Assembly (NCBI RefSeq): GCF_049587675.1
Contig: NZ_JBAVEJ010000057.1
Location: 12-64,011 of the forward strand
Direction of reading: 5' to 3'
DNA from: Sulfuricaulis sp.
GTDB taxonomy: Bacteria; Pseudomonadota; Gammaproteobacteria; Acidiferrobacterales; Sulfurifustaceae
Length of the DNA: 64,000 nucleotides
The notes beneath the pieces are model-generated. The model was not told the DNA's origin. It saw only the letters and a program-made list of their open reading frames with translations, and searched no databases. This document shows, piece after piece, positions 50,284 to 58,087 of the stretch. The position numbers were made by a program, and so were the translations under genes. The first letter of the stretch is position 1. Each line of letters starts with the position of its first letter.

Positions 50284-51144
50284 ATGTCGCAAGACGTATC
50301 GATTATTATCCCTGCAAAAAACGAGTTCGCCAGTTTGTGTCTCCTTCTGCCTGCATTGCGGAAAAACCACCCCGGCGCAGAAATCATTGTGGTAAGTGAC
50401 GGTTCGACGGACGATACCGAAAAAGTCTGTGTCACACATAATGTCGTGTTGCTGAAACATCCATACAGTATGGGCAACGGCGCGGCAGTAAAATCTGGCG
50501 CGCGCGCCGCCCATGGAAAAATTCTGGTCTTCATGGATGCCGATGGGCAACACAACCCCGAAGACATACCCAGATTGCTGTCTAAATTGCAAGAAGGTTA
50601 TGACATGGTTGTAGGGGCGCGCCATAGTAATTCACAGGCGAGTCTGGGCAGGTCATATGCCAATAAGATATACAATTGGTTGGCGAGTTGGATGGTTGGG
50701 CAAAAGATTGATGATTTGACCTCGGGATTCAGGGCTGTGCATGCTGATAAGTTTCGTCAGTTTCTTTATCTGCTGCCGAACGGATTTTCCTATCCCACAA
50801 CCATTACCATGAGTTTCTTCCGTGCTGGTTTTACTGTCACTTACGTTCCGATCTTCGCCGGCCGGCGTGAAGGAAAAAGCCATGTTCGCATCGTGCACGA
50901 CGGTGTGCGTTTTCTGCTCATTATATTCAAGGTCGGCACCCTGTACGCACCGCTGAAGTTCTTTTTCCCGATCAGCCTTGGGTTCTTTTTTACCGGCCTG
51001 TTTTATTATCTCTACACATTCATCAGTTACCGGCATTTCACCAATATGAGTGCGTTGCTGTTTATCACCTCCGTACTGGTATTCCTTATCGGGCTGGTTT
51101 CCGAACAGATTACCGTCCTGAATTATAAGGACAGCGAAAAATAA
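50284..51144 (+). CDS. GT2 polyprenol-phosphate glycosyltransferase (DPM1/GtrB-like) with two C-terminal TMs
   Basis: IIIPAKNE, DGSTD, FMDADGQH, DLTSGFRA, REGKS. Confidence 0.85.
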   Translation: MSQDVSIIIPAKNEFASLCLLLPALRKNHPGAEIIVVSDGSTDDTEKVCVTHNVVLLKHPYSMGNGAAVKSGARAAHGKILVFMDADGQHNPEDIPRLLSKLQEGYDMVVGARHSNSQASLGRSYANKIYNWLASWMVGQKIDDLTSGFRAVHADKFRQFLYLLPNGFSYPTTITMSFFRAGFTVTYVPIFAGRREGKSHVRIVHDGVRFLLIIFKVGTLYAPLKFFFPISLGFFFTGLFYYLYTFISYRHFTNMSALLFITSVLVFLIGLVSEQITVLNYKDSEK

Positions 51145-51148
51145 AAAG

Positions 51149-51940
51149 ATGTCCGGGGAAAATAAGGGGTCCATATTCGACTTTCTAGTGACGCCCGCGC
51201 CGCGTTACCTGATGCGGCTCGCACTGATCGAACAACTGGTAATGCGACTGCCGACCGGCGTTCGGTCTTTTCTTGAAATTGGTCCTGGCATGGGCGATAC
51301 GAGTTTATATCTCAGCCAGTGTTTTCCCGAAGCCGACGGGACGTTGCTCGATTTCTCTGACGATTGTATGGATATACTTCGTCAACGCACCGCCAATAAA
51401 TCGCGTCTGCGGTTGATGACGGGTGATTTCATGGGCATGACGCGAGAAAAACATTACGATCTGATCGTCGCGTGCGAAGTGCTCGAACATATTCGAGACG
51501 ACAAGGCGGCACTCGGCATCATCTCCGAGCTGTTGTCTCCCGGCGGCTACTTCATCTTTTCCGCGCCGGCCTTTATGCGAAAGTGGCAACACGTCGATGA
51601 GTATGCCGGACACTATCGGCGTTACGAGCGCGCCGAACTCATCGAAAAGTTCACGGCCAGCGGTCTTCACATCGACACGTTGTGGTGCTTCGGCTTCCCG
51701 ATCACACAGCTACTTTACCCTCTGCGGGAACTCTATTACGGCATGTCGCGCCGAAGGCAACATCTATCGAAAGAAGATGCTACCAAGCGTAGCGGCATCG
51801 AACGACCGCTTATCGGCAGAACCCGCGCAATATTGTTGGCACACCTGCTCCGACCTTTTTATTTCTTGCAAAACTGCGTGAAGCATACGGATTTAGGCGA
51901 CGGCTTTCTTGTTTTGGCGCAAAAGGGACGCCCGGCATGA
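51149..51940 (+). CDS. Class I SAM-dependent methyltransferase
   Basis: FLEIGPGMG, YDLIVACEVLEH, DEYAGHYRRY. Confidence 0.85.
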   Translation: MSGENKGSIFDFLVTPAPRYLMRLALIEQLVMRLPTGVRSFLEIGPGMGDTSLYLSQCFPEADGTLLDFSDDCMDILRQRTANKSRLRLMTGDFMGMTREKHYDLIVACEVLEHIRDDKAALGIISELLSPGGYFIFSAPAFMRKWQHVDEYAGHYRRYERAELIEKFTASGLHIDTLWCFGFPITQLLYPLRELYYGMSRRRQHLSKEDATKRSGIERPLIGRTRAILLAHLLRPFYFLQNCVKHTDLGDGFLVLAQKGRPA

Positions 51941-55330: not shown

Positions 55331-56500
55331 TCAGCGCGACCTCACTCCCAGGTCCAGAATGCTGGAGAGGAACCCACCCATGATGAACTGCACACCAAGT
55401 CCCAGCAGCGTAACGGAGGGGACAACCAAGCGCATCATCTCTCTGTAGTCGAGTACGCCAAATGACCTGGTTTCCCAAAACACAACGGCACTGACGACCC
55501 CTGCAACACCTATCACCAATAGCAGCAATCCCAAGATGACCGCTCGCTCCAGGGACATGATGCGCAAAAACCAACCGTATCGTGGACTTAAGGGCAAGAG
55601 CCTGGCCTTGGTGGCATATTGTTTGGCCAATAAAAAGAAGATCACGATCTGCGTGCCCACCAGAATTGCGCCCATTGCGATAATCAGCGTATGCACGTCG
55701 AAGATCACCGATCCCACTTGTAACGGTCCCGGCAAAACCAGGGCGTTGGCCAAAAGACCAAAAGCGATGAGGGCCAAACCGGGGTATAGAAACAACCAGC
55801 GCGGGCTATACATAAGAAGAAAGCGGAGATGGCGCCAACCGTCCCGCCAGCTTTGAAGGTGGGGGGGACGATTCCGCCCATCTGGTGATAGAGTCGTGGG
55901 TACCTCAGTAATTTTCAAATTAGCAAGTGTCGCCTTGACCACCATTTCCGAGGCGTATTCCATCCCCGTGGTTCGCAGATCGAGACACTCGACAGCCTCT
56001 TTGTTGAAACCGCGCAAGCCACAATGAAAATCCCCTATCTTGCTGGAGAAGAAGAGCCGACCGATAGCTGAGAGTATCGGATTGCCCAGATACCTGTGCA
56101 GCGGTGGCATGGCTCCCGGAAGGATTCCACCCTTGAAGCGATTTCCCATGACCAGATCGAAACCTTGGCGCAGTTTTTCGACAAATGGATCCAGATGCGA
56201 GAAATCGTAACTATCGTCGGCATCTCCCATGATCACATAGCGTCCTTGCGCAGCCGAGATCCCTCCCGTCAGCGCGGCGCCGTAGCCGCGCTCTTTGACA
56301 TCAACCAGCAGCGCTCCCAGCTTGCGCGCAATCTCTTGGCTACCGTCAGTGCTGCCATTGTCTGCGATAATTACCTCACCGGCCATGCCTGCACGGTAAA
56401 GATAGCTCTTAGCTTTTTTAATGCAGGCACTCAGCGTCTCGGCCTCGTTAAGACAAGGCATAACGATCGAGAGCTCTATCTCACCGGTGCGCAGACTCAT
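55331..56500 (-). CDS. GT2 polyprenol-phosphate glycosyltransferase with four C-terminal TMs
   Basis: IVMPCLNEA, ADNGSTDGS, GYGAAL, MGDADDSYDF, DFHCGLRGF, MEYASEM. Confidence 0.88.
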   Translation of the reverse strand: MSLRTGEIELSIVMPCLNEAETLSACIKKAKSYLYRAGMAGEVIIADNGSTDGSQEIARKLGALLVDVKERGYGAALTGGISAAQGRYVIMGDADDSYDFSHLDPFVEKLRQGFDLVMGNRFKGGILPGAMPPLHRYLGNPILSAIGRLFFSSKIGDFHCGLRGFNKEAVECLDLRTTGMEYASEMVVKATLANLKITEVPTTLSPDGRNRPPHLQSWRDGWRHLRFLLMYSPRWLFLYPGLALIAFGLLANALVLPGPLQVGSVIFDVHTLIIAMGAILVGTQIVIFFLLAKQYATKARLLPLSPRYGWFLRIMSLERAVILGLLLLVIGVAGVVSAVVFWETRSFGVLDYREMMRLVVPSVTLLGLGVQFIMGGFLSSILDLGVRSR

Positions 56501-56713
56501 TCCTGGTTCCTCTAACCATAAACCTTGACCAAGTAAAATATTTGACGTGTGGCAATAACACAGGCTATTTCAGCGCATACCAACCTCAACTCGTGTTATC
56601 AACGCCGTCATTCAACTCATGACATATACTTCGATAGTATAGCTACGCAAAAATACCTTATAACCGAACTCATAAAATACCCGCCTCCGGGTTACCCCTT
56701 ACTTAGAACCGTT

Positions 56714-58087
56714 ATGCAAACCTTACTTCGTGGTGTAAACCGACTGTTTAGATCCGTTGTACGCATACCTCGATACAGTTATGTCCTTGCCATCATTCTT
56801 CTTGTCGCCCTTGATCTGCGCATTCAGTCGGTAATCCATAGCGTCGTCGATACCCCGGTACGAGCCGATGCGCGCCAGTACGTCCTATACGCGCATAACT
56901 TGAAAAACTACGGCACCTACTCGCTTTCGGACACATTGTCCACGAATGGACAAGCAACCCCCAAGCCGGACGCAATACGTCCCCCATTTTATCCTTTCTT
57001 CCTCACACTATTCCTAGACCTGCAACCCACTGACGCAAACATCGCCGCGATTACCCGAGTCCAGGCGGTAATAAGCACGTTTACGGTATTGCTTGTTTTC
57101 TGGCTTGCGCGTCGCGTCCTTCCTCTACCGTTTGCGCTCGCTGCTTCGGCTTTCACAGCCATCAGTCCACATCTGGTCACAATGAATATTTATCTCTTAA
57201 GCGAGACCCTATTCTGTTTTTTACTCGTGCTCGCAATATATGCGCTAGCAAAAACGGCAGAGAGACAGAATCTTGTGGCTTCAGCATTGGCGGGACTGAC
57301 GCTCGGAGCCGCCGCACTTACGCATCTCATGCTGCTCTATTATGTATTGCCGCTCGCGGTTTTTCTGCTTTGCTTCTGGGGCTGGAAAACCGGATGGCGA
57401 AAGGCCGTTGTGCTTGTCTTGGGCTTCAGTCTCCTCTATGGGGCATGGATTGCGCGAAACATAAATACGCTTGGTGTTCCGGGTGATAATACCCAGATGT
57501 CGGTGACACTACGCATCGGAGCATATAACAACATGATGTACCAGAACGATCCACGGTCCTACGGTTTTCCATATAGATTCGACCCCCACTATGAGGAAAC
57601 TTCCAAGGATTTGCCTTCAGTGATATCAGCAGTAGTCAATGAGTTCAAGGAAGCTCCGATCCAGCAACTGCGCTGGTATATCCTCGGCAAACCACTGATG
57701 CTGTGGTCATGGAACATCATCGCTGGACAAGGCGACGTCTTTGTCTATCCAGTGAAGAGCACACCTTATAATTATCTGTTTCATTTCCGAGCGACACACG
57801 CGGTGATGTACGCCACTCACGGGATATTCGTCGTGCTGATGATAGGCGGTATCATTATTGCCTGGTTCCCGCCGGTTAAGTCTGGCTTCTCAAACGAAGC
57901 GGTCTTTATCGCGCGCGCCATTTCGGTTTTATTGCTGTATCATGCTGCAGTAATGATGATCGGCTTCCCGGAACCACGTTACGCGGTTCCGATGCGCCCA
58001 TTCTTGTATATCATGTCCATGATACCCATTGCCGTCGCGATAAGATGGATTTTAACCAAACGATCCGGTCTGTCCGGAACAAGCTGA
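56714..58087 (+). CDS. GT-C (family 39/ArnT-PMT-like) membrane glycosyltransferase
   Basis: First-loop DARQY, RPPFYPFFL, LLSETLFCFL, EPRYAVP, multi-TM. Start inferred (frame open from 56549). Confidence 0.8.
   Translation: MQTLLRGVNRLFRSVVRIPRYSYVLAIILLVALDLRIQSVIHSVVDTPVRADARQYVLYAHNLKNYGTYSLSDTLSTNGQATPKPDAIRPPFYPFFLTLFLDLQPTDANIAAITRVQAVISTFTVLLVFWLARRVLPLPFALAASAFTAISPHLVTMNIYLLSETLFCFLLVLAIYALAKTAERQNLVASALAGLTLGAAALTHLMLLYYVLPLAVFLLCFWGWKTGWRKAVVLVLGFSLLYGAWIARNINTLGVPGDNTQMSVTLRIGAYNNMMYQNDPRSYGFPYRFDPHYEETSKDLPSVISAVVNEFKEAPIQQLRWYILGKPLMLWSWNIIAGQGDVFVYPVKSTPYNYLFHFRATHAVMYATHGIFVVLMIGGIIIAWFPPVKSGFSNEAVFIARAISVLLLYHAAVMMIGFPEPRYAVPMRPFLYIMSMIPIAVAIRWILTKRSGLSGTS

What the first reader, a model, noticed from the sequence alone, without database searches (positions are those of the whole stretch)
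50284..58087. Lipid-linked, possibly methylated sugar supply module completing the pilin glycosylation cassette
Seen: two different DPM1/GtrB-like GT2s, each immediately followed by a SAM methyltransferase (50284-51940 on plus, 56500-54605 on minus), plus a GT4, a UPF0104 flippase-like protein and a fourth GT-C of a different family. No wzx, wzy, O-antigen ligase or arabinofuranose (UbiA/DprE-like) genes are present. Known: GT-C enzymes use polyprenol-phosphate sugars made by GT2s and flipped outward. Inference: two separate undecaprenyl-P-monosaccharide donors, perhaps methylated, feed four GT-Cs to build a branched or capped glycan unlike the TfpW arabinan or the TfpO O-antigen route. The region looks more AT-rich than its flanks.
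Basis: partly seen in the sequence, partly recalled or inferred. Interest (0 to 1): 0.65.

Follow-up and report, generated by a model that had tools for sequence, protein, structure and literature searches.

The report
Variable sugar-supply module of pilin glycosylation island
The seven genes are real and most likely belong to a swappable gene island that coats the cell's type IV pilus protein with lipid-carried, possibly methylated sugars, a little-studied variant of the Pseudomonas TfpW system that no experiment has yet tested.

Summary
All seven genes are present as described: GT2a+MTase, GT4, a UPF0104 flippase-like protein, MTase+GT2b on the minus strand, and a PMT_2 GT-C. The island's GC is 0.52 against 0.576 for the rest of the window.

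They form the right half of a replaceable island between pilA and ccmA in a Sulfuricaulis-type genome. Relatives have no island there, or islands with other contents.

- **GT2a is tied to pilin glycosylation.** In 80 orthologue loci from Beta- and Gammaproteobacteria, 55 of 70 have a TfpW-like GT-C/TPR gene directly upstream. A pilin gene lies upstream in 44 of 54. In 41 genomes of the order, GT2a and TfpW-like genes co-occur (16/1/2/22, p = 2e-8).
- **The rest is accessory and mosaic.** The GT2+MTase+PMT_2 unit recurs with TfpW-like genes at two different chromosomal sites (pilA–ccmA and pilA–pilBCD). More distant copies lie away from pil genes.
- **MTase::GT2 fusion proteins in relatives** argue that methylation is coupled to donor synthesis.
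- **No D-arabinofuranose pathway** was found in the genome.

Verdict: a new variant of a known kind (TfpW-type pilin glycosylation). The sugars, the methylation and the acceptors are inferred, not shown.

The parts
43504..43950 (+). pilA, the major type IV pilin (148 aa, no Cys); presumed acceptor
   Evidence: Pfam Pilin and N_methyl. Sits after pilS-pilR as in relatives.
44155..46152 (+). TfpW-like GT-C/TPR glycosyltransferase, paralogue 1 (TPR1)
   Evidence: Pfam finds TPR only. AF2 pLDDT 89.7. The membrane domain matches Pmt4, STT3 and PglB. D47 and D48 are invariant in 40 homologues.
46149..48167 (+). TfpW-like GT-C/TPR glycosyltransferase, paralogue 2 (TPR2)
   Evidence: 43 % identical to paralogue 1. 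Overlaps paralogue 1 by 4 bp.
48206..50266 (+). TfpW-like GT-C/TPR glycosyltransferase, paralogue 3 (TPR3)
   Evidence: 34 % identical to paralogue 1.
50284..51144 (+). GT2a: GtrB/ArnC-type polyprenol-phosphate sugar synthase, the conserved partner of the TfpW-like enzymes
   Evidence: Pfam GT2. DAD motif and 2 C-terminal TM helices. Best PDB matches are ArnC, DPMS and GtrB. 61-77 % identical orthologues follow pilA and a TfpW-like gene. Genome co-occurrence p = 2.3e-8.
51149..51940 (+). MTa: soluble class I SAM methyltransferase
   Evidence: Methyltransf_23/12/25/11. No TM helix. 73-79 % identical orthologues hold the same position in relatives.
51937..53142 (+). GT4: soluble Leloir-type glycosyltransferase
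   Evidence: Glyco_trans_1_4 and Glycos_transf_1. No TM helix. Homologues of 46 % and 36 % identity lie in two other pilA/TfpW-like/GT2a loci that show no detectable UPF0104 homologue.
53212..54231 (+). UPF0104 / LPG_synthase_TM flippase-like membrane protein
   Evidence: Pfam E 3.7e-41. TIGR00374 'flippase-like domain' scores above its cut-off. Recurs beside PMT2 homologues.
54232..54604 (.). Non-coding spacer between convergent operons; mosaic junction of the island
   Evidence: Window 54590-60000 is 92.7 % identical to L193, while GT4 and UPF0104 are only 72 % identical. The 4.4-kb MT::GT2-FkbM-PMT_2 segment of L193 is absent here.
54605..55324 (-). MTb: soluble SAM methyltransferase
   Evidence: Methyltransf_11. 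Lies 6 bp downstream of GT2b.
55331..56500 (-). GT2b: DPMS-type polyprenol-phosphate sugar synthase with 4 C-terminal TM helices
   Evidence: Pfam GT2. Best PDB match is Pyrococcus Dol-P-Man synthase 5mlz, then ArnC and GtrB. TM helices. The 389-aa GT2 at the same position in L193 carries GT2_TM_C.
56501..56713 (.). Probable divergent promoter region between GT2b and PMT2
   Evidence: PMT2 homologues begin at residue 56 of the long ORF. Sequence read.
56549..58087 (+). PMT2: PMT_2-family GT-C glycosyltransferase (true start probably 56714)
   Evidence: Pfam PMT_2 42.4 bits, cut-off 26.1. An Asp after TM1 is invariant in 19 homologues. Found in 6 of the 41 genomes searched (5 of 21 same-genus genomes, own included). 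Next to ccmA in every same-genus locus read.

Best explanation
Genes 50284-58087 are the variable donor-synthesis and tailoring half of a horizontally exchanged pilin O-glycosylation island. The island runs from pilA to PMT2 (43.5-58.1 kb), between pilSR-pilA and ccmA.

**Proposed mechanism**
1. GT2a, a GtrB/ArnC-type enzyme, loads a sugar from a nucleotide sugar onto undecaprenyl phosphate on the cytoplasmic face. It is the dedicated donor synthase of the three TfpW-like GT-C/TPR enzymes encoded just upstream.
2. MTa and GT4 are soluble and translationally coupled to GT2a. They modify this lipid-linked sugar before export, by O-methylation and by adding a second sugar.
3. The UPF0104 protein flips the lipid-linked glycan to the periplasm.
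4. The TfpW-like enzymes transfer it to Ser/Thr of PilA. Their TPR domains hold the pilin.
5. A second self-contained unit works in parallel. GT2b makes another Und-P-sugar, MTb methylates it, and the PMT_2-type GT-C uses it in the periplasm to add a further residue to the pilin or its glycan.

The likely benefit is surface variation of the pilus, for example against pilus-specific phages as shown for TfpW and TfpO in Pseudomonas.

**Shown here:** gene content, domain families, the GT-C fold of the TfpW-like enzymes, the conserved linkage pilA / TfpW-like / GT2a, recurrence of the GT2+MTase+PMT_2(+UPF0104) module in TfpW-like islands, MTase::GT2 fusions, and the mosaic and AT-rich nature of the island.

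**Inferred:** every substrate, the order of steps, the methylation target and the acceptor.
For: **Domains and topology.** Both GT2s match ArnC, DPMS and GtrB best in the PDB.

**Fold of the upstream enzymes.** The membrane domain of TfpW-like paralogue 1 was modelled at pLDDT 88.5. It matches Pmt4, STT3 and PglB at TM-score about 0.5. A DD motif after TM1 is invariant.

**GT2a linkage.** Of 70 GT2a orthologue loci with enough upstream sequence, 55 have a TfpW-like gene directly upstream. Of 54 loci, 44 have a pilin gene upstream. Within the order the 2x2 table is 16/1/2/22, Fisher p = 2.3e-8, and the two genes always share a contig.

**Variable site.** The interval between pilA and ccmA is variable in the genus. 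It is empty in G010 and G024, holds different tailoring genes in G013 and G015, and holds the same block GT2a-MTa-GT4-UPF0104...PMT2 in G019 and in metagenome loci L115-L120.

**Second chromosomal site.** The module MT::GT2 - PMT_2 - MTases - PMT2 - GT2 - UPF0104 lies between pilA/TfpW-like/GT2 and pilBCD in L108 and L194. It lies next to a TfpW-like gene plus a GT2a-like gene in L195.

**Methylation coupled to donor synthesis.** MTase::GT2 fusion proteins occur in G019, G020, L108, L193, L194, L195 and L196.

**Recurrence of the unit.** Among 21 PMT2-homologue loci with flanks on both sides, 16 have a GT2, 11 an MTase and 10 both within 3 kb. The same profiles give no hit in the 49 kb of this window outside the island.

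**Tailoring genes in other islands.** SAM MTases recur downstream of GT2a in 20 of 80 loci, and a GT4 directly follows it in 39 of 80.

**Flippase assignment.** UPF0104 is the predicted flippase domain of archaeal AglD and of MprF (PMC5898192).

**No D-Araf pathway.** No ALO/DprE1-type domain in the genome.

**Foreign origin.** Low GC and GC3 and a recombination junction at about 54.2-54.6 kb.
Against: - There is no biochemical or expression evidence.
- The PMT_2 unit is not exclusive to pilin islands. L110 (45 % identity) has PMT_2+MTase+GT2 among housekeeping genes, and L111 (41 %) has PMT_2 alone.
- Among metagenome loci of at least 8 kb, island markers were seen in 6 of 7 homologues at 50 % identity or more, but only 3 of 9 at 40-49 % and 3 of 12 below 40 %.
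- In the order, PMT2 presence does not correlate with TfpW-like genes (3/3/15/20, p = 1). The three PMT2-only genomes are 79-83 % complete MAGs whose contigs break inside the island.
- GT2b and MTb are not orthologous to the GT2 and MTase that flank PMT2 in most relatives (24-28 % identity), so the partner assignment rests on adjacency.
- A GT4+UPF0104 pair is also the signature of glycolipid systems (gpgSDF, PMC12713373).
- The substrates of the MTases cannot be read from sequence.
Confidence: 0.6

Rival explanations
1. Only GT2a (perhaps with MTa and GT4) serves the pilin enzymes. The MTb-GT2b-PMT2 unit is an autonomous GtrABC/ArnCT-like periplasmic glycosylation unit aimed at another acceptor, such as lipid A or LPS core, another envelope protein or a polysaccharide. 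It merely sits in the recombination-prone site next to ccmA.
For: - PMT2 lies next to ccmA in every same-genus locus read.
- Three same-genus genomes have PMT2 but no detectable TfpW-like gene or GT2a.
- L110 and L111 carry homologues away from TfpW-like genes.
- Most homologues below 50 % identity show no pil marker on their contig.
- The unit is a separate transcription unit, divergent from GT2b and separated from the plus-strand operon by a mosaic junction.
- The PMT_2/ArnT superfamily includes lipid A modifiers (established knowledge).
Against: - Homologues of 46-92 % identity lie inside TfpW-like islands at two unrelated chromosomal positions, pilA-ccmA and pilA-pilBCD.
- The three discordant genomes are incomplete MAGs whose contigs end in the island.
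- No NCBIfam ArnT or other equivalog match was found.
- No arnABD-type genes are nearby.
Confidence: 0.22
2. GT4 and the UPF0104 protein form a membrane-glycolipid synthase and flippase pair, like GpgS/GpgF of P. aeruginosa or HexS/HexF of C. difficile. The PMT_2 enzyme may extend this lipid in the periplasm, as in mycobacterial PIM/LM synthesis. On this reading part of the module builds a glycolipid or lipoglycan, not the pilin glycan.
For: - GT4 is directly followed by a UPF0104 protein, the same pairing as gpgS...gpgF (PMC12713373).
- UPF0104 is best known as a phospholipid flippase domain (MprF; 10.1101/2022.03.11.483950).
- A soluble GT4 has no obvious role in a scheme with Und-P-monosaccharides only.
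Against: - No deacetylase gene is present.
- GT4 overlaps MTa by 4 bp and sits in one operon with GT2a and the TfpW-like genes.
- Relatives of this GT4 (46 % and 36 % identity) lie in other pilA/TfpW-like/GT2a islands with no UPF0104 homologue detectable by BLAST.
- UPF0104 homologues lie beside PMT2 homologues without a GT4. The two are therefore not an obligate pair, and each follows the island.
- Archaeal AglD fuses a Dol-P-sugar synthase to UPF0104 (PMC5898192), which fits a polyprenol-sugar flippase.
Confidence: 0.1
3. GT2a and GT2b each make one Und-P-monosaccharide, each is methylated, and the four GT-Cs assemble a branched or capped glycan entirely in the periplasm, one sugar at a time. 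GT4 plays no part in the pilin glycan.
For: - There are two TM-anchored GtrB/DPMS-type GT2s, each with an adjacent MTase.
- TfpW is proposed to both polymerise and transfer from a monosaccharide lipid donor (10.1101/2020.04.19.049825).
- Three TfpW-like paralogues could act in sequence.
Against: - It leaves GT4 unexplained, although GT4 is translationally coupled to MTa.
- A GT4 directly follows GT2a in 39 of 80 loci. Other soluble GT2s, epimerases and sometimes Wzx-like flippases accompany it. This is typical of cytoplasmic assembly of an oligosaccharide on the carrier.
- The number of TfpW-like paralogues (1-3) varies independently of the tailoring genes.
Confidence: 0.2

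Closest known systems
TfpW pilin glycosylation system of Pseudomonas aeruginosa/paraeruginosa group IV strains (Pa5196, PA7)
   Same: A GT-C enzyme of about 650 aa lies directly after pilA. It has a multi-helix membrane domain, a DD motif in the first periplasmic loop and a C-terminal periplasmic TPR domain. It uses a polyprenol-phosphate-linked donor flipped to the periplasm. The locus is variable and of foreign composition (10.1101/2020.04.19.049825).
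   Different: The Pseudomonas donor is decaprenyl/undecaprenyl-P-D-Araf, made by PRPP-dependent PPPRS plus DprE1/DprE2 genes. Here there is no ALO/DprE1-type domain in the genome. A GtrB-type GT2 is the conserved partner instead. There are three paralogues rather than one. The island also carries MTases, a GT4, a UPF0104 flippase-like protein and a PMT_2-type GT-C. There is no TfpX. Direct sequence comparison with TfpW itself could not be made.
GtrABC-type three-component periplasmic glycosylation (and ArnC/ArnT; CsbB/GtcA/YfhO)
   Same: A GT2 with 2-4 C-terminal TM helices makes the Und-P-sugar, a flippase exports it, and a GT-C transfers it outside the cytoplasm (PMC11127046, PMC11194591). 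GT2a and GT2b match GtrB, ArnC and DPMS best in the PDB.
   Different: The presumed acceptor is a protein (pilin), not O-antigen, lipid A or teichoic acid. The flippase candidate is UPF0104, not GtrA or MATE. A SAM methyltransferase is a regular fourth member, and in relatives it is fused to the GT2.
Haloferax volcanii Agl N-glycosylation pathway (AglJ, AglG/I/E, AglP, AglB, AglD, AglS)
   Same: In the Agl pathway a GT2 primes a polyprenol monophosphate (AglJ) and soluble GTs extend the lipid-linked glycan. A SAM MTase (AglP) methylates a sugar while it is lipid-linked, and a GT-C transfers the glycan to protein. A second GT2 (AglD, fused to a UPF0104 domain) makes a Dol-P-hexose that is added last, outside the cell. 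This is my own knowledge of the pathway, partly stated in PMC5898192. AglJ is the best NCBIfam hit of both GT2a and GT2b.
   Different: Both hits lie far below the AglJ trusted cut-off (119 and 131 bits against 325), so these are analogues, not members. The host is a bacterium. The linkage is presumably O- rather than N-. The transferases are TfpW-like or PMT_2, not AglB/STT3.
gpgSDF (P. aeruginosa) / hexSDF (C. difficile) glycolipid operons
   Same: A GT4 is followed by a UPF0104 flippase-like protein (PMC12713373).
   Different: There is no deacetylase. The pair is embedded in, and co-transcribed with, a pilin/GT-C/GT2 operon. The two genes occur separately in related islands.

Membership tests
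TfpW-type pilin glycosyltransferase (for the three upstream enzymes that the module is proposed to feed) | Encoded immediately downstream of the major pilin gene | tested here: met
   pilA ends at 43950 and the first paralogue starts at 44155. The same order holds in 55 of 70 related loci.
TfpW-type pilin glycosyltransferase (for the three upstream enzymes that the module is proposed to feed) | About 650 aa, multi-span GT-C membrane domain plus C-terminal periplasmic TPR domain | tested here: met
   665, 672 and 686 aa. TPR Pfam hits in the C-terminus of paralogue 1, only sub-threshold hits in paralogues 2 and 3. AF2 model of paralogue 1 at pLDDT 89.7. Its membrane domain matches Pmt4, STT3 and PglB.
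TfpW-type pilin glycosyltransferase (for the three upstream enzymes that the module is proposed to feed) | DDX motif in the first periplasmic loop | tested here: met
   D47 and D48 are invariant in 40 homologues.
TfpW-type pilin glycosylation system | Proline-rich motif YX6PFX7P in periplasmic loop 4 | tested here: inconclusive
   Y309-x6-P316 is conserved (Y invariant, P at 90 % or more). The following FX7P is not present in that form.
TfpW-type pilin glycosylation system | Significant sequence similarity to TfpW of PA7/Pa5196 | not tested
   No TfpW sequence was available in the collections I could query. The published homologues are only 30-47 % identical to each other.
TfpW-type pilin glycosylation system | D-arabinofuranose donor pathway (PPPRS, DprE1, DprE2) | tested here: not met
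   No such genes in the island. No ALO/DprE1-type domain in the whole genome, while the control genome of C. glutamicum is positive.
GtrB/ArnC/DPMS-type polyprenol-phosphate glycosyltransferase (GT2a, GT2b) | GT-A domain with a DXD motif followed by C-terminal TM helices | tested here: met
   Pfam GT2. 'FMDADGQ' in GT2a and 'GDADDS' in GT2b. 2 and 4 C-terminal TM helices.
GtrB/ArnC/DPMS-type polyprenol-phosphate glycosyltransferase (GT2a, GT2b) | Closest solved structures are polyprenol-phosphate GTs | tested here: met
   GT2a: ArnC 1.8e-15, DPMS 2.9e-12, GtrB 1.4e-10. GT2b: DPMS 1e-13, ArnC 4e-10.
GtrB/ArnC/DPMS-type polyprenol-phosphate glycosyltransferase (GT2a, GT2b) | Forms a polyprenol-monophosphate sugar | not testable with these tools
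   Needs an enzyme assay or lipid LC-MS.
GT-C, PMT_2 family (PF13231; ArnT/PMT-like) for the 56549-58087 product | Pfam PMT_2 above the gathering score; acidic residue in the first periplasmic loop | tested here: met
   42.4 bits against 26.1. R50, D52 and A53 are invariant in 19 homologues.
ArnT (lipid A L-Ara4N transferase) | NCBIfam equivalog match; arnABCD neighbours | tested here: not met
   The only NCBIfam hit is a weak sub-threshold one to AZOBR_p60025_fam. There are no arn genes nearby.
UPF0104 / LPG_synthase_TM flippase-like family | Pfam PF03706 and TIGR00374 above cut-off; multi-span membrane protein | tested here: met
   142 bits against 33.4, and 58.5 against 43.2. 7 hydrophobic segments. 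Flippase activity cannot be tested here.
Eukaryote-type TMTC (DUF1736) O-mannosyltransferases | Pfam DUF1736/TMTC or PMT match in the membrane domain | tested here: not met
   No such hit for the three paralogues. Only 1 of 40 family members hits PMT. The resemblance is in architecture and fold only.

The most novel reading that the evidence does not exclude
The island encodes a combinatorial 'plug-in' glycan diversification system. Each unit of {TM-anchored GT2 + SAM methyltransferase (sometimes fused to the GT2) + PMT_2-type GT-C} makes an O-methylated polyprenol-phosphate sugar and adds it in the periplasm to the pilin glycan. Methylation would happen on the lipid-linked or nucleotide donor before flipping. 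To my knowledge this donor class has not been described for bacterial protein glycosylation. Units are shuffled between strains by recombination at the pilA-ccmA or pilA-pilB hot spot to vary the pilus surface, for instance against pilus-specific phages.
Probability: 0.3. Interest if true: 0.7.

Novelty: new variant of a known kind. Interest (0 to 1): 0.5.

Why it matters
TfpW is the only studied GT-C pilin glycosyltransferase, and it uses an unusual D-arabinofuranose donor. The data here show that across many Beta- and Gammaproteobacteria the usual partner of TfpW-like enzymes is a highly conserved GtrB-type GT2 (61-77 % identity across orders). A hypervariable set of tailoring genes follows it.

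This window carries an elaborate version, with two donor synthases, two methyltransferases, a GT4, a flippase candidate and an extra GT-C. Together with its relatives it gives a natural series of module swaps. Those swaps could be used to assign each gene to one mass increment on the pilin.

If the methylated-donor idea holds, it adds a donor type to bacterial periplasmic glycosylation. It would also offer parts for glyco-engineering. As it stands this is a sound comparative-genomics prediction, not a surprise in kind.

Tried and rejected
- **Sequence searches to place the TfpW-like membrane domain in GT-C failed.** Pfam and NCBIfam gave TPR hits only. PDB phmmer and profile searches gave TPR only. 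hhalign against the PMT2 family gave 10 % probability. Foldseek with the full-length model was swamped by TPR proteins. A second model of residues 1-440 was needed.
- **The PMT2 profile found nothing in the PDB**.
- **MTa and MTb against the PDB** gave only generic SAM-MTase hits, with no clue to substrate.
- **The sigma-70, terminator and sigma-54 pattern scans were uninformative.** There were fewer promoter-like sites than in shuffles, and 80 sigma-54-like matches against 79 expected.
- **My first adjacency count was too strict.** It required the tblastn HSP to end within 400 bp of GT2a and gave 45 of 74. It was replaced by a start-based criterion, which gave 55 of 70.
- **The plasmid search with PilA** returned small Pseudomonas plasmids that carry a pilin but no glycosylation genes. 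This was a dead end for obtaining TfpW.
- **No remnants of the GT2c or MT::GT2 genes of relatives** were found in the window's spacers.
- **I considered an ArnT / lipid A modification reading for PMT2 and rejected it** (no equivalog hit, no arn genes).
- **Literature searches found no paper describing a pilA / TfpW-like / GT2 cassette**. The library holds open-access papers only.

Full report
**What is there.**
- GT2a is 286 aa. It has a GT2 domain, a DAD motif and two C-terminal TM helices.
- MTa (263 aa, Methyltransf_23) follows GT2a after 4 bp.
- A soluble GT4 (401 aa) overlaps MTa by 4 bp.
- An LPG_synthase_TM/UPF0104 membrane protein (339 aa) comes next.
- On the minus strand, GT2b is 389 aa with a GT2 domain and four C-terminal TM helices. 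MTb (239 aa, Methyltransf_11) follows it after 6 bp.
- Divergent from GT2b is a PMT_2-family GT-C.

The annotated 512-aa frame of this GT-C is probably too long. Homologues are about 457 aa and align from residue 56, so the start is probably near 56714.

No Wzx, Wzy, Wzy_C, phosphoglycosyl-transferase or arabinofuranose-pathway domain was detected in the island. The 99.9 %-complete genome has no ALO/DprE1-type domain, whereas the control genome of Corynebacterium does.

The AT-richness is real. GC is 0.52 against 0.576 for the rest of the window. GC3 is 0.55-0.66 against 0.67-0.79 in the flanking pilS, pilR, ispB and ccmABC genes.

**Setting.** Upstream lie ispB, pilS, pilR and pilA (148 aa), then three paralogous 665-686-aa proteins. 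Pfam and NCBIfam recognise only their C-terminal TPR repeats. Downstream lies ccmABC.

The paralogues are 34-43 % identical to one another. An alignment of 40 homologues shows an invariant DD right after the first TM helix, plus about 17 other invariant residues in the membrane domain.

AlphaFold2 models built from paralogue 1 are confident, at pLDDT 89.7 for the full length and 88.5 for residues 1-440. Foldseek with the full model was dominated by TPR proteins. With the membrane domain alone, the eight best confident hits are all GT-C enzymes: Pmt4, yeast and human STT3, PglB and AftA, with TM-scores of 0.46-0.52 for the best.

Position after pilA, size, topology, the DD motif and the periplasmic TPR domain match the published description of TfpW, the pilin arabinosyltransferase of P. 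aeruginosa group IV strains (10.1101/2020.04.19.049825). I could not align against TfpW itself.

**Is the module tied to the pilin enzymes? GT2a: yes.** A scan of one genome per species returned at least 560 relatives of GT2a. I analysed the best 80, which are 61-77 % identical and come from many orders of Beta- and Gammaproteobacteria.
- Of 70 loci with at least 2.5 kb of upstream sequence, 55 have a TfpW-like gene directly upstream on the same strand. Several others have one slightly further away.
- Of 54 loci with at least 8 kb upstream, 44 have a type IV pilin gene upstream.
- In 41 genomes of the window's order, GT2a and TfpW-like genes co-occur as 16 both / 1 / 2 / 22 neither (Fisher p = 2.3e-8). 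They are always adjacent on one contig, and the three discordant cases lie at contig ends.

GT2a is therefore the conserved donor synthase of this class of pilin GT-C. Its best solved relatives are ArnC, Pyrococcus Dol-P-Man synthase and GtrB. All three are polyprenol-phosphate glycosyltransferases.

**What follows GT2a elsewhere is variable.**
- In 39 of 80 loci a GT4 comes directly after GT2a.
- In 20 of 80 loci there is a SAM methyltransferase.
- Others carry NAD-epimerases, further GT2s, CDP-sugar genes and, in 6 loci, a Wzx-like flippase.

Within the genus the interval between pilA and ccmA is a replacement hot spot. I take the genus to be Sulfuricaulis from the title of the closest public record, which is 96 % identical in PilS and PilR.
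- G010 and G024 have no island.
- G013 has two TfpW-like genes, GT2a, an MTase and a Wzy_C+TPR protein.
- G015 has three TfpW-like genes and GT2a, then a GT2, a GDSL esterase, an SxtJ-like protein, a carbamoyltransferase and an MFS-spermine-synthase-like protein.
- G019 and the metagenome loci L115-L120 share the block GT2a-MTa-GT4-UPF0104 at 58-79 % identity. A longer right-hand part follows and ends with the PMT2 orthologue and ccmA.

**The right-hand unit.** PMT2 is found in 6 of the 41 genomes searched, which is 5 of 21 same-genus genomes with the window's own included. Its homologues show a recurrent neighbourhood: a TM-anchored GT2, one or more SAM MTases (classes 23, 11 and FkbM), often a second PMT_2 enzyme and a UPF0104 protein.

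In relatives an MTase is fused to a GT2 in one 466-476-aa protein. This is seen in G019, G020, L108 and L193-L196. Such a fusion argues that methylation and donor synthesis are functionally coupled.

The whole module lies between pilA/TfpW-like/GT2 and pilB-pilC-pilD in L108 and L194 (49-51 % identity to PMT2). This is a different chromosomal site in a different organism. It also lies next to a TfpW-like gene plus a GT2a-like gene in L195 (46 % identity).

Among 21 homologue loci with flanks on both sides, 16 have a GT2, 11 an MTase and 10 both within 3 kb. The same profiles hit nothing in the 49 kb of this window outside the island.

The link to pilin is not obligate.
- L110 (45 % identity) has the trio among ribosomal and Fe-S genes.
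- L111 (41 %) has PMT_2 alone, 4 kb from a pilS-pilR-GT2-TMEM260-like-pilin cluster.
- In metagenome loci of at least 8 kb, island markers appear in 6 of 7 homologues at 50 % identity or more, but only 3 of 9 and 3 of 12 below that.
- At genome level in the order, PMT2 does not correlate with TfpW-like genes (p = 1). The three PMT2-only genomes are 79-83 % complete MAGs whose contigs break inside the island.

**Mosaic structure.** A close relative, L193, is 92.7 % identical to the window from 54590 through ccmC. It is only 72 % identical across GT4 and UPF0104. It also carries a 4.4-kb MT::GT2-FkbM-PMT_2 segment exactly where the window has a 374-bp non-coding spacer (54232-54604). The window's island is thus a recombinant, with a junction between its two convergent transcription units.

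**Most likely mechanism.** The domains and linkage are shown; every step below is inferred.
1. GT2a loads a sugar onto undecaprenyl phosphate at the cytoplasmic face.
2. MTa and the soluble GT4, which are translationally coupled to GT2a, methylate and extend this lipid-linked sugar.
3. The UPF0104 protein flips it. The family is the predicted flippase domain of archaeal AglD and of MprF (PMC5898192; 10.1101/2022.03.11.483950).
4. The TfpW-like enzymes transfer it to PilA.
5. GT2b, MTb and PMT2 form a second GtrABC-like unit that adds a further, possibly methylated, residue in the periplasm.

The overall logic resembles the Haloferax Agl pathway: AglJ priming, soluble GTs, AglP methylation on the lipid, then AglD/AglS adding a last hexose outside the cell. 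I recall this pathway from my own knowledge. AglJ is the best NCBIfam hit of both GT2s, but far below its cut-off, so this is an analogy and not membership.

**Rivals.**
- *PMT2 unit serves another acceptor (about 0.22).* It would merely lodge at the ccmA-side hot spot.
- *GT4+UPF0104 as a GpgS/GpgF-like glycolipid pair (about 0.1; PMC12713373).* Against this, each gene occurs separately in related islands.

**Comparison and novelty.** The closest known system is TfpW. This island shares its enzyme architecture and locus logic, but fails the D-Araf donor feature. It uses a GtrB-type GT2 with extra tailoring units instead.

I found no paper describing a pilA / TfpW-like / GT2 cassette or its MTase/PMT_2 extensions in the searchable library. 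Earlier AI notes of this scan report the same three-gene core, and pilin-linked GT-C/GT2/methyltransferase islands, in other genomes. Those notes agree with this reading but are not independent evidence.

I class the finding as a new variant of a known kind. It has moderate interest, and a testable idea that methylated polyprenol-phosphate sugars serve as donors.

Noticed in passing
window 43504-43950: PilA has no cysteine. Of 60 pilins directly upstream of TfpW-like genes in related loci, 56 have the usual two Cys. Only this lineage's closest relative (L017) also lacks them.
   Followed up: partly
window 54232-54604 vs L193:1511-5891: Recombination junction. The right part of the island (from 54590) is 92.7 % identical to a metagenome relative, the left part only 72 %. 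A 4.4-kb MT::GT2-FkbM-PMT_2 segment is missing here.
   Followed up: yes
window 56549-56713: The first 55 codons of the PMT_2 ORF (GTG start) have no counterpart in about 120 homologues. The real start is probably the ATG at 56714, which leaves a divergent promoter region of about 213 bp shared with GT2b.
   Followed up: partly
L013:11519-12934; L193:1524-2939; L108:4797-6227; L194:4782-6212; L195:5973-7388; L196:6620-8020: Recurrent single-chain fusion of a class I SAM methyltransferase (N-terminal) with a GT2 domain (C-terminal) and no TM helix, next to PMT_2 GT-C genes.
   Followed up: partly
L098:8900-19300 (G015, closest relative): The same pilA-ccmA site carries a different tailoring set: a GT2, a GDSL esterase, an SxtJ-like protein, a NodU/CmcH-type carbamoyltransferase and a 1018-aa MFS plus spermine-synthase-like protein. 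This suggests carbamoylated rather than methylated glycans.
   Followed up: no
L099:1039-2982 (G013): A 647-aa Wzy_C (O-antigen-ligase-like) protein with C-terminal TPR repeats sits in the same island slot, beside two TfpW-like genes and GT2a.
   Followed up: no
L111:14010-21332: pilS-pilR is followed by a GT2 with a GtrA_DPMS_TM domain, a 678-aa TMEM260-like GT-C and two pilin genes. A third GT-C family thus lies next to pilins.
   Followed up: no
L109:12819-15815; L112:11455-14466; L098:15511-18567: A protein of about 1000 aa that combines MFS-like TM helices with a spermine/spermidine-synthase domain lies between the island and ccmA in several relatives. It is absent from the window.
   Followed up: no
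window 43274-43288: A TGGCAT-N5-ATGC sigma-54-like site lies about 230 bp upstream of pilA, consistent with PilR control. Such 2-mismatch matches are no more frequent than chance in the window.
   Followed up: no
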